Origin: Desulfobacteraceae bacterium
GTDB lineage: Bacteria > Desulfobacterota > DSM-4660 > Desulfatiglandales > Desulfatiglandaceae
Assembly: GCA_030642205.1 (NCBI GenBank)
Contig: DAOWOF010000001.1
Coordinates: forward strand, 1-49,300
DNA: 49,300 nucleotides
Direction of reading: 5' to 3'
In this document: in pieces, positions 12,560 to 22,711 of the stretch
How the letters are laid out: every line of letters starts with the position of its first letter
How positions within the stretch are numbered: position 1 is the first letter of the stretch
Notes under the pieces: generated by a model
Seen by the model: only the letters and a program-made list of their open reading frames with translations
Told to the model about the DNA's origin: nothing
Databases searched by the model: none
Translations under genes and position numbers: made by a program

Positions 12560-13231
12560 CTAAACTCCAGTTTTTATTTGCGCTCGTGGCCCAAAAAGTT
12601 TAGTTCCGAGTCTGATGATATTTGCCCCTTCTTCAATTGCTACCTGGTATGATGAGGACATCCCCATTGAAAGATATCTCATTTCAAATGCTTTATTGTC
12701 CTTTCTCTTCAACTCTTCAAATAACCTGCAAACCCTTGAAAAATATGGGCGACAGTCTTCCTGATTGCTGGTTGCGGGACCCATTGTCATTAAACCCATA
12801 ATTTTGATGTTTTTTAATTGAGAGATCTTTTCTACAAGAGAGATCGTATTTATGGGTAAAACTCCAGGTTTCTGCCCCTCTTCAGCGCTGTTTATCTCTA
12901 TCAGGATTGGCATTGATTTGGCATGTTTTAAGCTTGCCTTATCAATAGCTTTGGCCAGCTTAAATGAATCTACTGTCTCAATCATATCGAACAGTGCAAC
13001 CGCCTTTTTTGCCTTATTACTTTGGAGGTGTCCAATCATATGCCATTTAGCACGGTCGCCTATAGCTTGAAAGGCAAGCTCAGCCTCTTTAACATAGTTA
13101 TGACCAATAATATGGAGCCCTCCTTCCAAGGCCTCCAGCATTTCAGAAGATGATCTGGTCTTGGCTGCCCCCACAAGTTCTACTGTCTTTGGGATGTCTT
13201 TCAGGATTCTGGCTACATTTTCTTTGATCAT
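12560..13231 (-). CDS. yggS: YggS-family pyridoxal-phosphate homeostasis protein
   Basis: 223 aa. VELVGAAKT carries the PLP-lysine context, with HMIGHLQSNK and LSMGMSSSYQVAIEEGANIIRLGT. This is the typical YggS/PROSC pattern. Confidence 0.85.
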   Translation of the reverse strand: MIKENVARILKDIPKTVELVGAAKTRSSSEMLEALEGGLHIIGHNYVKEAELAFQAIGDRAKWHMIGHLQSNKAKKAVALFDMIETVDSFKLAKAIDKASLKHAKSMPILIEINSAEEGQKPGVLPINTISLVEKISQLKNIKIMGLMTMGPATSNQEDCRPYFSRVCRLFEELKRKDNKAFEMRYLSMGMSSSYQVAIEEGANIIRLGTKLFGPRAQIKTGV

Positions 13232-13262
13232 AACAGCACTCCTCTGATAATATAAAATATAA

Positions 13263-13273
13263 ATGCATAAAAG
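13263..13273. promoter_or_regulatory. ATGCATAAAAG motif, copy 1 (candidate operator)
   Basis: Lies 45-55 nt upstream of the ATG at 13318. The same 10-mer occurs twice upstream of the selenoprotein gene. Confidence 0.35.
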
Positions 13274-13317
13274 TTAAAAGGGCTTCTGCCTGGACCAATT
13301 TTTTAAAGGACGATACC

Positions 13318-13704
13318 ATGAAAAATAAATGCTGATGTTATCAAGATTATTAAACAACATTCTTCAGAAGCTGAGATAACATGTGCACTACTTTTTAAGA
13401 TTGCAAATAATTATCATATACAACTTGAAGAACTAAGTTTTGCAATAGATCAGCTTGAGATCTCCCTTATTAAATGTCAATTGGGACTCTTTGGCTATAA
13501 ACCACAAAAAAACAAATTAAACCGGCAGAATATGTTCCTGAAGGTCTTGAAAGGGCTATTCGGGACTCTTTAATTGGGGGCAAGTTGCATTGCAAGATCG
13601 CATGGAAGATTGCGAAACAACTCAATATTGGCAAAATGGATATTTCATCTGCATGCGAATCTCTTAAGATTAAAATTTCAGGCTGTCAGTTAGGCGCTTT
13701 TTAA
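13318..13704 (+). pseudogene. Frame-disrupted gene for a small protein with two tandem ~37-aa Cys...CQLGxF domains
   Basis: ATG at 13318 with AGGA upstream. Coding sense continues in a second frame from 13331 (ADVIKIIKQHSSEAEITCALLFKIANNYHIQLEELSFAIDQLEISLIKCQLGLFGYKPQK). It continues in a third frame from 13513 (QIKPAEYVPEGLERAIRDSLIGGKLHCKIAWKIAKQLNIGKMDISSACESLKIKISGCQLGAF, stop at 13702-13704). Both switches fall at A-rich runs. Confidence 0.55.
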
Positions 13705-13742
13705 TAAACTTCTGTCTAAAAAATACTTATTTATGCAAAAAA

Positions 13743-13791
13743 GCCTTATCCTCAGTGAAAGCAATAGAACTCCAGGGTTGAGGATAAAGGC
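13743..13791. terminator. Bidirectional hairpin between convergent genes (GCCTTATCCTCA ... TGAGGATAAAGGC)
   Basis: ~12-bp stem with one bulged A and a 24-nt loop, flanked by A/T runs. It sits between the ends of the 13318-13704 (+) and 13806-14120 (-) genes. Confidence 0.5.
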
Positions 13792-13805
13792 TTATCAAAA
13801 GATAC

Positions 13806-14120
13806 TCAGCAAGAGCTACAAGAGCCACCGCAGGAAGGCGCCGCTGACATGCTGGACACAATATTAAAACCAGAGCCCATGGGGCTGTTAATAAAATCGA
13901 TCTTTATTGGTTTTACACGGTTAAAAAGATCTTTTTCAACTAGATAGGTGATATCTCTGTCTTCAAATTTCATATCATTATCTTTAAGCTCATCCAGAGC
14001 CATACCCAAAGAGGGCCCTGATCAGCCTCCTGGCGTAAGCATTATCCTGACTGAGGCATTTCCCTTGTCTTTAAGGATATCCCCCAGCATTTCATTTGCT
14101 TTTTCTGTTACTTCAAACAT
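13806..14120 (-). CDS. HesB/IscA-like selenoprotein (in-frame UGA = Sec at codon 33)
   Basis: ATG at 14120, preceded by GGAGG with 5-nt spacing. Reads MFEVTEKANEMLGDILKDKGNASVRIMLTPGG-U-SGPSLGMALDE..., with TGA at 14022-14024 in the GG(C/U)SG position of HesB/IscA proteins. The tail is Cys-rich (CGGSCSSC). The ORF track only reports the part after the TGA, from TTG 14009. Confidence 0.75.
13995..14020 (-). promoter_or_regulatory. Candidate bacterial SECIS hairpin
   Basis: Starts 1 nt after the UGA, separated by a single U. The CAGGGCC (14020-14014) / GGCUCUG (14001-13995) stem is 7 bp including one G-U. The 12-nt loop CUCUUUGGGUAU contains GGGU. Confidence 0.5.
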
Positions 14121-14146: not shown

Positions 14147-14169
14147 ATGCATAAAATAATGCATAAAAG
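14147..14169. promoter_or_regulatory. Two tandem ATGCATAAAA motifs (candidate operator), 12 nt centre to centre
   Basis: Copies at 14147-14156 and 14159-14168, 27-49 nt upstream of the selenoprotein ATG. The core ATGCAT is palindromic. Confidence 0.35.
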
Positions 14170-21324: not shown

Positions 21325-21852
21325 CTAGAGTCCACGAAGGATCCCCATAACAGCTTTTTTTGGAAGCTGGGAACTAATTTTACCATTAGCATAAAAACCT
21401 AAGCCTAAAATAAAATTCTGATAGTCAAGAATTATATAGCCTGTATCAAGATCTGTCTCTACTTTTATTTTTTCATTAGATATGAGTTTATGCAACTGAT
21501 CTTGATCAATTTTTAACCTCGCACGAGTAGCATGGTGTCCAAATATCTGTATAAAACAGGTAGTTGGTTTAAGATAAGAACTGACACGCCTAATAGCAAT
21601 CAACCCTACCTTTGCCACTTTTAATTGCGATCCAACTGCTAAATGGTGTGTGGATCGCATTAAAGACCATGCCTTTTCCCTCCCAAACAAAATATAGTCA
21701 TCAAAAAGGCTCTTATTGATTCCAAATCTATTTTCAAGATATGCCATGATTTTCTTTCGATCATGCTCTTTTGCTAATTCTGGCCATGAAGAATCCCACG
21801 GAGTCGACCCAATGAGGATACAATCTGATGGTTTTTTCAATTCTTTTGTCAT
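21325..21852 (-). CDS. RsmF C-terminal / PUA-like RNA-binding domains, normally fused to the upstream methyltransferase
   Basis: LENRFGI... and GYIILDYQNFILGLGFYANGKISSQLPKK match the RsmF C-terminal domains. It overlaps the upstream ORF by 92 nt in another frame. See the finding on the frameshift. Confidence 0.7.
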   Translation of the reverse strand: MTKELKKPSDCILIGSTPWDSSWPELAKEHDRKKIMAYLENRFGINKSLFDDYILFGREKAWSLMRSTHHLAVGSQLKVAKVGLIAIRRVSSYLKPTTCFIQIFGHHATRARLKIDQDQLHKLISNEKIKVETDLDTGYIILDYQNFILGLGFYANGKISSQLPKKAVMGILRGL

Positions 21853-22666
21853 ATATTTTCCCCACCCAGGAAATAATGCCTGGAGAGTATCTCAAATTCA
21901 TCTCAATAGGCAGCAATTCAGCATCTCTATTTTCCAAAAGATAATTAACCACAGCTTCATTCTCATCAGGATTATAGGTGCAAGTTGAATAAATCATTTG
22001 GCCACCAGGCTTTAACAAATCATAGCCCCTGATTATTATCTTTTTCTGTAAATCAGGAAGCCTGCCTTTTTTCATCTTTTCTTTATAGCGCATTCCTTTT
22101 TTAGTTTTTCTAAACATTCCCTCGCCAGAGCAAGGCACGTCGGCCAAAATATAATCAAATTTTTGCCTTAAAGGGAATTCCTGGGCTTGATAACTCGTAA
22201 CAATGGTGTTAAGAATTCCTAATCTATTCAAGGTATTTCCCAGAGCAAGATGCCTGCTAGGATAAAGTTCATTGGCAACAATCAATCCTGAGTTACCCAT
22301 TATTTGAGCCATATGCGCAGTTTTTCCTCCAGGCGAAGCACACATATCAAGAACCAATGAATCTTCTTTCGGTGAAAGAATGATAGAGGCGAGGCAAGAG
22401 GTCAAGGCCTGAGGATGAATATATCCCAAAAAATATTCCAGAAGATTTCCAGGAGAATAAAGCCCAGGAATAAAAAAAGTATAATCCACTTGTTTTGTTG
22501 ACGAGACAATATTGACACCTTTCTTTAAAAAGGCATCGACCAGGATGGCTGGTTGAACTTTTAGCAGGTTCACCCTTAGATGGGGAATAAAAGGACGCTG
22601 TATAACTTCCTGAAAAAGGGAAAATTCAGGGATAATTTCATTATAATGCTCAAAAATAGGTAACAT
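21761..22666 (-). CDS. NOL1/NOP2/Sun (RsmB/RsmF-type) RNA m5C methyltransferase, catalytic part
   Basis: Has the SAM motif DMCASPGGKT, catalytic DVPCSGEG and STCT, and ends with the domain-terminal GFFMARISK. The stop falls just after an A4 run. Confidence 0.85.
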   Translation of the reverse strand: MLPIFEHYNEIIPEFSLFQEVIQRPFIPHLRVNLLKVQPAILVDAFLKKGVNIVSSTKQVDYTFFIPGLYSPGNLLEYFLGYIHPQALTSCLASIILSPKEDSLVLDMCASPGGKTAHMAQIMGNSGLIVANELYPSRHLALGNTLNRLGILNTIVTSYQAQEFPLRQKFDYILADVPCSGEGMFRKTKKGMRYKEKMKKGRLPDLQKKIIIRGYDLLKPGGQMIYSTCTYNPDENEAVVNYLLENRDAELLPIEMNLRYSPGIISWVGKIYDKRIEKTIRLYPHWVDSVGFFMARISKRA

Positions 22667-22711
22667 TTGATTGACAATAATAGGATCTCTCCAGGTTATT
22701 AACCCTTTAGA

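What the first reader, a model, noticed from the sequence alone, without database searches (positions are those of the whole stretch)
13318..13704. Cys-motif tandem-domain gene needs two frame changes, one exactly on an A_AAA_AAC -1 slippery heptamer
The coding signal runs through three frames. ATG-AAA-AAT-AAA (13318) stops after 5 codons. The next frame encodes ...ITCALLFKIANNYHIQLEELSFAIDQLEISLIKCQLGLFGYKPQK. The third frame opens only after a TAA at 13498-13500, has no start of its own, and encodes QIKPAEYVPEGLERAIRDSLIGGKLHCKIAWKIAKQLNIGKMDISSACESLKIKISGCQLGAF. The two halves are internal duplicates: C-x30-CQLGxF, with shared K-I-A, S-x-A and L-x-I positions. The second switch is a -1 shift, and the zero frame reads CA-A AAA AAC (13507-13513), the classical X_XXY_YYZ register. 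I saw no convincing downstream stimulatory hairpin. The first switch is a +1 shift near AAATGCTGA. The options are a decaying pseudogene, homopolymer sequencing errors, or programmed recoding. I cannot place the domain itself in a family. The gene is convergent with, and shares an upstream motif with, a selenoprotein gene.
Basis: partly seen in the sequence, partly recalled or inferred. Interest (0 to 1): 0.62.

Follow-up and report, generated by a model that had tools for sequence, protein, structure and literature searches.

The report
Recently broken small cysteine-repeat gene
This is a recently inactivated copy (pseudogene) of a widespread, uncharacterised 144-residue four-cysteine protein of sulfate-reducing bacteria, broken by a 50-base deletion and a one-base loss in an A-run, not a case of programmed ribosomal frameshifting.

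Summary
The three-frame pattern is real. ATG 13318 stops after 5 codons, domain 1 lies in the next frame, and domain 2 lies back in the first frame after the A7 run at 13506-13512. It is not recoding.

A relative about 93% identical in DNA carries the same gene in the same gene order on four independent metagenome contigs. There it is one open 145-codon frame. Aligned to it, the window shows two lesions:
- It lacks exactly 50 nt between two copies of a 9-nt direct repeat, GAAAAATAA. This removes codons 2-18 and puts the retained ATG out of frame.
- It has A7 where the relative has A8 (CCA CAA AAA AAA CAA).

The "A_AAA_AAC heptamer" is simply what remains when one A is lost from Gln-Lys-Lys codons.

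Other evidence:
- All 80 distant orthologous loci, and 32 of 38 related genera, have one uninterrupted frame.
- No downstream structure stands out (z = -1.1).
- Independent per-run contigs from the source sample reproduce both lesions. One run has A8, so the 1-nt lesion looks polymorphic.
- Over 9.4 kb of comparison, no neighbouring gene has an internal frame-breaking indel.
- dN/dS is raised: 0.48 against 0.11-0.27 for neighbours.

Verdict: an ordinary young pseudogene. The gene family itself (tandem C-x30-CQLGxF, wHTH-like repeats) remains uncharacterised.

The parts
13305..13310 (+). Shine-Dalgarno-like AAAGGA, 7 nt before the retained start codon; conserved in the intact relative
   Evidence: Read directly from the sequence. 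Identical block AAGGACGATA(C/T)CATG in the relative's contigs.
13318..13335 (+). Retained ancestral start codon plus 4 codons and a TGA (MKNKC*). After the deletion it is out of frame with the rest of the gene.
   Evidence: the relative reads ATG AAA AAT AAG AAC... from the same ATG.
13320..13328 (+). Single remaining copy of the 9-nt direct repeat GAAAAATAA, which marks the junction of the 50-nt deletion. The relative has two copies 50 nt apart and encodes MKNKNRGHSFSKKYLNDRKIN across them.
   Evidence: Alignment A1. Repeat positions 50 nt apart in L016. The junction is present in contigs of runs X1 and X2.
13322..13510 (+). Repeat/domain 1 (C-x30-CQLGLF) in window frame 2, with no canonical start codon of its own
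   Evidence: Aligns to residues 19-81 of intact P0001.
13506..13512 (+). A7 tract, an A8 tract in the relative (CCA CAA AAA AAA CAA = PQKKQ) that has lost one A. Site of the second frame break and of the apparent A_AAA_AAC heptamer.
   Evidence: four relative contigs have A8. (X1 and X3 have A7; X2 from the same sample and X4 have A8). (tract length varies from 3 to 8 in other orthologues).
13510..13707 (+). Repeat/domain 2 (C-x30-CQLGAF) plus stop codon, in window frame 1
   Evidence: Aligns to residues 82-145 of P0001.
13741..13793 (.). Long hairpin between the convergent pseudogene and the selenoprotein gene. Likely a shared terminator (inferred).
   Evidence: Fold: a 15-pair stem with one bulge. 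The energy of the whole 102-nt stretch is not exceptional (z = -1.2).

Best explanation
The locus is a young pseudogene of a conserved, stand-alone ~144-aa protein made of two tandem three-helix (winged-HTH-like) repeats. Each repeat carries two invariant cysteines (C-x30-CQLGxF).

Two independent DNA lesions broke it in this population:
1. A 50-nt deletion between two copies of the 9-nt direct repeat GAAAAATAA. This is the signature of replication slippage or microhomology-mediated deletion. It removed codons 2-18 and left the original ATG one base out of frame with the body of the gene.
2. A one-base contraction of an A8 tract (Gln-Lys-Lys codons) to A7 in the inter-domain linker.

The A_AAA_AAC 'slippery heptamer' is a by-product of lesion 2. 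The 5' deletion is found in both runs of the source sample that cover it, whereas A7 and A8 coexist. The likely order (inferred) is that the deletion killed the gene first, and the tract contraction is a later neutral change still segregating.

Shown: both lesions, their reproducibility, intact orthologues, intact neighbours. Inferred: the deletion mechanism, the order of events, and the absence of any protein product.
For: - Close relative: P0001 (145 aa, 88% identical to the conceptually joined window protein) is encoded intact on contigs from ENA, JGI (two) and Logan, in the same gene order: ECH / ttcA-like / yggS <- -> gene <- hesB-Sec / ham1 / pgi.
- Lesions: DNA alignment shows the 50-nt gap flanked by GAAAAATAA, and A8 against A7. 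The repeat spacing of 50 nt was verified.
- Orthologues: 32 of 38 related genera have one open frame covering residues 2-128 with no internal stops. All 80 loci from genome contigs are uninterrupted (the one exception, L079, was checked and is intact with a CRLG variant). The A-run at the linker is not conserved, ranging from 1 to 9.
- Read data: the X1 contig (971 nt, depth 4) spans the whole gene with both lesions and no gaps. An X2 contig covers the deletion junction. X3 has A7. X2 has A8 linked to a C>T change at 13495.
- Neighbours: across 9.4 kb aligned to the relative at 92.8% identity, every other indel is intergenic, in frame (3 nt in hesB-Sec), or at the extreme 3' end of yggS. Only this gene has internal frame-breaking indels.
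- Selection: dN/dS is 0.48 (Nd 15, Sd 8) against 0.11-0.27 in five neighbours, Fisher p = 0.025. The window lineage has G57S at a position that is Gly in 99% of 110 homologues.
- Loss elsewhere: the gene is missing from 7 of 40 related genomes, including all four genomes of one family. It can therefore be lost.
Against: - Coverage is very low (2-4x), and the data are assembler contigs, not raw reads. The A7/A8 calls rest on few reads.
- Decay is slight. Apart from the two indels only a few damaging substitutions are seen, and several window residues are closer to the family consensus than the relative's. dN/dS rests on 23 substitutions.
- Natural 126-aa homologues start where the truncated window gene would start. 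Loss of the N-terminal 18 residues alone need not be fatal. Only the frame mismatch is.
- The genome is a MAG about 80% complete, so an intact second copy elsewhere cannot be excluded. None was found.
Confidence: 0.88

Rival explanations
1. Sequencing or assembly artefact: the organism's real gene is intact, and the MAG contig carries errors at one or both sites.
For: Depth is only 2-4x in the source sample. One of three runs of that sample gives A8, which restores the frame at the second site. The genome is a fragmented MAG of 294 contigs.
Against: A 50-nt deletion bounded by a 9-nt repeat is far below assembler k-mer sizes and is not a read-level error. Independently built contigs of runs X1 and X2 reproduce it. 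A7 is reproduced in two runs (X1, X3), and the A8 contig carries a linked SNP at 13495, which points to real haplotypes. No other coding indel occurs in ~7.6 kb of neighbouring genes compared with the relative. The relative shows no indel in another 1.35 kb tested.
Confidence: 0.06
2. Programmed recoding: a +1 slip on the A5 run after the ATG and a -1 slip on A_AAA_AAC together yield a ~128-aa protein resembling the natural short (126-aa) forms.
For: The heptamer is in the correct X_XXY_YYZ register. A +1 slip of tRNA-Lys on A_AAA_A would read MKINADV... A -1 slip would give ...PQKNQIKP..., one residue different from the ancestral PQKKQIKP. Natural 126-aa homologues begin at the same point.
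Against: Both sites are derived lesions that are absent from a ~93% identical relative and from every orthologue. There is no stimulatory structure at 5-9 nt, no internal SD at dnaX-like spacing (read from the sequence), and no stop or rare codon to drive +1. Two unstimulated events in series would give a negligible yield. A7/A8 is polymorphic in the sample.
Confidence: 0.02
3. Phase-variable (contingency) gene: the A-tract switches between A7 and A8 to turn the gene off and on in the population.
For: A7 and A8 alleles coexist in the same sample. The tract sits inside the coding region.
Against: With the 5' deletion the gene is out of frame whatever the tract length. The relative's four contigs from different samples all have A8. 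The tract is not conserved among orthologues. The tract is short, and the protein is a small cytoplasmic type, unlike known contingency loci.
Confidence: 0.03

Closest known systems
Ordinary bacterial pseudogenes formed by repeat-mediated deletion and homopolymer contraction
   Same: The gene is intact in a close relative and in all orthologues. The deletion is bounded by a short direct repeat. There is a 1-nt loss in a poly(A) tract. dN/dS is raised. Neighbouring genes are intact.
   Different: Nothing essential differs. It is young, with little substitutional decay, and the 1-nt lesion appears still polymorphic.
dnaX-type programmed -1 ribosomal frameshifting (A_AAA_AAG with upstream SD and downstream hairpin)
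   Same: An A-rich heptamer in the X_XXY_YYZ register. The -1 frame carries the rest of a recognisable protein.
   Different: There is no conserved shift in orthologues, no stimulatory hairpin at the right spacing, and no internal SD. The heptamer arises from the loss of one A from an ancestral A8 tract. A second, unrelated frame break lies upstream.
Rescue of poly(A)-tract frameshifts by transcriptional slippage in endosymbionts (from my own knowledge: Tamas et al. 2008, Buchnera/Blochmannia)
   Same: A frameshift located in a poly(A) tract inside an otherwise conserved gene.
   Different: That rescue needs longer tracts (about 9 or more A). Here the tract is A7, and a 50-nt deletion independently disrupts the 5' end. 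This was not tested here.
Uncharacterised tandem C-x30-CQLGxF family (weak similarity to Pfam DUF7645 and to HTH families)
   Same: The joined window protein aligns end to end with the family at ~50% identity, with all four invariant Cys, W113 and the CQLGxF motifs present.
   Different: The window copy is broken. No curated family reaches threshold: DUF7645 scores at best 26.6 bits against a cut-off of 27, and only in other members. No function is known.

Membership tests
Programmed -1 ribosomal frameshift site | Slippery heptamer X_XXY_YYZ in the zero-frame register | tested here: met
   A_AAA_AAC at 13507-13513, with frame-2 codons CAA AAA AAC.
Programmed -1 ribosomal frameshift site | Stimulatory downstream structure 5-9 nt after the heptamer (and/or an upstream SD-like element) | tested here: not met
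   The fold of 13514-13600 has z = -1.12, and the stem begins ~19 nt downstream. No GGAGG-like element lies ~10 nt upstream (read).
Programmed -1 ribosomal frameshift site | The frame change is conserved in orthologues | tested here: not met
   All orthologues are in a single frame: 32 genera, 80 of 80 loci, and the ~93% identical relative with A8.
Programmed +1 ribosomal frameshift site (prfB/antizyme type) | Shift-prone P-site codon followed by a stop or slow codon, conserved in orthologues | tested here: not met
   The first switch coincides with a 50-nt deletion junction that is absent from relatives. The zero-frame codon after AAA is AAT, not a stop.
Pseudogene | Frame-disrupting lesions relative to intact orthologues, at the orthologous (syntenic) locus | tested here: met
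Pseudogene | The lesions are real in the DNA, not assembly errors | tested here: met
   Independent per-run contigs reproduce both lesions. The caveat is low depth (2-4x) and that these are contigs, not reads.
Pseudogene | Relaxed selective constraint | tested here: inconclusive
   dN/dS is 0.48 against 0.11-0.27 in neighbours, p = 0.025, but on only 23 substitutions. One substitution falls at a 99%-conserved Gly.
Pseudogene | No protein product | not testable with these tools
   No RNA or proteome data were found for this population.
Pfam DUF7645 / winged-HTH superfamily (for the domain) | Score at or above the curated threshold, or a significant fold match | tested here: not met
   The window halves and P0001 give no Pfam or NCBIfam hit. 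DUF7645 is sub-threshold in 24 of 111 members. Foldseek against PDB finds nothing at E < 0.1; the best local resemblance is to the N-terminal helical domain of FdsG/NuoE/NfnC and to homeodomains.

The most novel reading that the evidence does not exclude
Despite both lesions, the locus still yields a low level of a ~128-aa short-form protein, like the natural 126-aa homologues. This would need a +1 slip (or transcriptional slippage) on the A5 run after the ATG and a -1 slip on A_AAA_AAC. It would be a freshly arisen, unselected double-recoding rescue caught in a wild population.
Probability: 0.03. Interest if true: 0.55.

Novelty: already known. Interest (0 to 1): 0.1.

Why it matters
For recoding, the result is negative. 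A textbook-looking slippery heptamer in the right register can arise trivially when one A is lost from Lys-Lys codons in an AT-rich genome. One comparison with a close relative settles such a case.

There is a small positive by-product. The locus documents, at population level, an early stage of gene death: a repeat-mediated deletion found in every covering run, followed by a homopolymer contraction still segregating.

It also draws attention to a widespread, unnamed protein family. The family has about 1,000 clusters at 50% identity and at least 581 matching loci, the 80 examined mostly from Thermodesulfobacteriota. It has four invariant cysteines, and about 30% of loci lie next to an IscA/HesB (seleno)protein gene. 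Its function is unknown.

Tried and rejected
- Pfam and NCBIfam scans of each half, of the joined protein and of P0001 gave no family. Only sub-threshold DUF7645/HTH hits appeared, and only in other members.
- A profile search of PDB sequences gave only a chance-level match to archease, E ~0.9.
- AlphaFold2 models of the full relative (pLDDT 76, pTM 0.41) and of window domain 2 (pLDDT 75) gave no Foldseek match at E < 0.1.
- Rfam found nothing near the locus, only three tRNAs elsewhere in the window.
- A search for a stimulatory hairpin was negative.
- The literature search for DUF7645 returned 0 papers.
- A second search for sequencing runs found no further samples holding the window haplotype.
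- I considered alternative starts for frame 2. The nearby ATGs at 13329 and 13335 are in the third frame. Frame 2 has only ATA/ATC/ATT before domain 1, and its first TTG is inside the CQLG motif. These were rejected as credible starts.

Full report
**Observation.**
- ATG 13318 opens a 5-codon frame, MKNKC, followed by TGA at 13333-13335.
- The next frame (phase of 13319) reads KINADVIKIIKQHSSEAEITCALLFKIANNYHIQLEELSFAIDQLEISLIKCQLGLFGYKPQKNKLN... and stops at 13568-13570.
- The first frame reopens after TAA 13498-13500. It reads TTKKQIKPAEYVPEGLERAIRDSLIGGKLHCKIAWKIAKQLNIGKMDISSACESLKIKISGCQLGAF, with its stop at 13705.
- Both halves are C-x30-CQLGxF and align without gaps: 34% identity over 41 residues, E = 6e-8.
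- In the second frame the A7 run (13506-13512) is read CAA AAA AAC. A_AAA_AAC is therefore in the X_XXY_YYZ register.
- The frame holding domain 1 has no ATG, GTG or TTG before the domain.

**What the gene is.** Neither half, nor the conceptually joined protein, matches any Pfam or NCBIfam model.
- A six-frame search of 40 related genomes found one uninterrupted open frame covering residues 2-128 of the joined protein in 32 of 38 genera. Identity is about 40-52% and there are no internal stops. In the window's own genome there are only the two fragments.
- The protein-cluster search found 147 homologues. Nearly all are exactly 144 aa, all are called hypothetical, and they come from Desulfobacterales, Desulfatiglans and allies.
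- A profile search of 1.84 billion representatives found 1,076 clusters at E <= 1e-3, overwhelmingly stand-alone proteins of about 144 aa.
- A scan of species-representative genomes found at least 581 loci. The 80 examined are mostly from Thermodesulfobacteriota.
- The family alignment has invariant C39, C70, C109, C140, D61, W113 and the two CQLG motifs, plus a conserved N-terminal MTHEDxGxYAKKH extension.
- AlphaFold2 gives each repeat as helix-strand-helix-helix-strand, a winged-HTH-like fold (pLDDT about 76).
- Foldseek finds nothing significant in the PDB. The best local resemblances are the N-terminal helical domain of FdsG/NuoE/NfnC and homeodomains.
- Sub-threshold Pfam hits in other members go to DUF7645 and various HTH families.
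- The family is real, widespread and uncharacterised.

**The decisive comparison.** The closest homologue, P0001, is 145 aa and 88% identical. It is encoded intact on contigs from four independent data sets (ENA, two JGI, Logan). The gene order matches the window: enoyl-CoA hydratase, ttcA-like, yggS, then the gene divergently, then convergent hesB-selenoprotein, ham1 and pgi. The DNA alignment shows two differences that matter.
- Deletion. The relative reads ...AAGGACGATATC ATG AAA AAT AAG AAC CGT GGG CAT TCT TTT TCA AAA AAG TAT CTT AAT GAC CGA AAA ATA AAT CCT GAT... The window reads ...AAGGACGATACC ATG AAA AAT AAA TGC TGA. Exactly 50 nt are missing.
- The missing segment lies between two copies of GAAAAATAA that are 50 nt apart in the relative. 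One copy remains, at 13320-13328.
- Because 50 is not a multiple of three, the retained ATG is one base out of frame with the body of the gene.
- Tract contraction. The relative reads CCA CAA AAA AAA CAA ATT (PQKKQI) with A8. The window has A7.
- Losing one A from Gln-Lys-Lys codons automatically produces CAA AAA AAC, the apparent slippery heptamer.

**Conservation.** All distant orthologues pass through the linker in one frame.
- The A-run there varies from 1 to 9 bases, depending on codon choice for the conserved (E/Q)-K-K.
- 79 of 80 loci had both motifs in one ORF by pattern. The one exception, L079, is intact with a CRLG variant.
- No lineage conserves a frame change.
- No stimulatory structure follows the heptamer: z = -1.12, and the stem starts about 19 nt downstream.

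**Are the lesions real?** Contigs built independently from single runs of the likely source sample (marine sediment metagenome, S1) were laid on the window.
- The X1 contig (971 nt, depth 4) spans 13100-13900 with no gaps, so it carries both lesions.
- An X2 contig covers the deletion junction without any difference.
- X3 has A7.
- Another X2 contig is otherwise window-like over 13437-13712, but has A8 together with C>T at 13495.
- X4, from another sample, carries the roughly 93% identical relative at depth 14. It has A8 and 66 nt in place of 13305-13319, which is the intact 5' end.
- Both covering runs of the sample therefore show the 50-nt deletion, while A7 and A8 coexist as linked haplotypes.
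- This fits a gene killed by the deletion and then drifting. That ordering is an inference.
- Depth is low, and these are contigs rather than reads. That is the main caveat.

**Specificity.**
- In a 9.4-kb alignment of the window with the relative (92.8% identity), all other indels fall into three harmless classes. They are intergenic, in frame (3 nt in hesB-Sec), or at the extreme 3' end of yggS.
- Lon, ECH, ttcA-like, ham1 and pgi keep identical lengths.
- Another 1.35 kb elsewhere shows no indel against the relative.
- Two frame-breaking lesions in the one 0.4-kb gene are therefore not general assembly noise.
- dN/dS between window and relative is 0.48 for this gene, against 0.11-0.27 for five neighbours. 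Fisher p = 0.025, on small numbers.
- Polarised against 110 homologues, the window lineage changed G57 (Gly in 99%) to Ser, plus P53L, P22A and E114K. The relative has its own changes.
- Decay is therefore slight and recent.
- The gene is absent from 7 of 40 related genomes, including all four genomes of one family. It can be lost.

**Residual possibilities.**
- Natural 126-aa homologues begin exactly where the truncated gene would begin. An in-frame version of the deletion might have been tolerated.
- A +1 slip on A_AAA_A would give MKINADV..., and a -1 slip on the heptamer would give ...PQKNQIKP....
- Nothing supports either as an evolved mechanism, and two unstimulated events in series would give negligible product. 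I put this at about 2-3%.
- Phase variation is moot, given the 5' lesion.

**Context.**
- The convergent neighbour (13806-14120, minus strand) is an IscA/HesB selenoprotein (NF038090, 116 bits with TGA = Cys).
- By tblastn, a HesB-like gene lies within 3 kb of the family member in 24 of 80 loci, ham1 in 21, and yggS, mltF and gcpE in 14 each. The yggS arrangement is also seen in a Desulfatiglans contig.
- The shared ATGCATAAAA motif is real but weak. It is not conserved at the first site in the relative, which reads ATACATAAAA. The other two copies sit at an indel boundary.

**Verdict.** This is an ordinary, young pseudogene of an uncharacterised but widespread four-cysteine tandem-repeat protein. 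Interest is low. The family itself may merit a separate look.

Noticed in passing
window 13318-13707 and homologues P0001-P0270: The intact family is widespread but has no name or function. It is ~144 aa, with two wHTH-like repeats, four invariant Cys, CQLGxF motifs and a conserved MTHEDxGxYAKKH N-terminus. It has about 1,076 clusters at 50% identity and at least 581 matching genome loci; the 80 examined are mostly Thermodesulfobacteriota. A HesB-like (seleno)protein gene lies within 3 kb in 24 of 80 loci.
   Followed up: partly
window 13263-13272, 14147-14156, 14159-14168: ATGCATAAAA occurs three times, only here in the 49-kb window: upstream of the pseudogene and, twice, upstream of the selenoprotein gene. 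All copies are on the + strand. 4 of 100 shuffles reach three copies. The relative has ATACATAAAA at the first site, and the other two copies abut a 103-nt indel.
   Followed up: partly
window 10446, 11726, 14148, 14231, 16460 (intergenic): Relative to the ~93% identical lineage, the window lacks several intergenic blocks (146, 38, 103, 113 and 101 nt) and has only two extra blocks (44 and 158 nt). This suggests a deletion bias in this small-genome MAG (2.3 Mb at 80% completeness).
   Followed up: no
Contigs of the ~95% identical relative in two other samples show no indel anywhere in 21348-22700. The arrangement is therefore shared with that lineage and is not an error of this assembly.
   Followed up: partly
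window 12579-12581 (yggS 3' end): A 2-nt indel relative to the relative lies near the stop of yggS, giving 223 aa here against 220 aa there. It changes only the C-terminal tail.
   Followed up: no
window 13741-13793: A ~15-bp stem with a 22-nt loop lies between the convergent pseudogene and the hesB-selenoprotein gene. It is a possible bidirectional terminator.
   Followed up: partly
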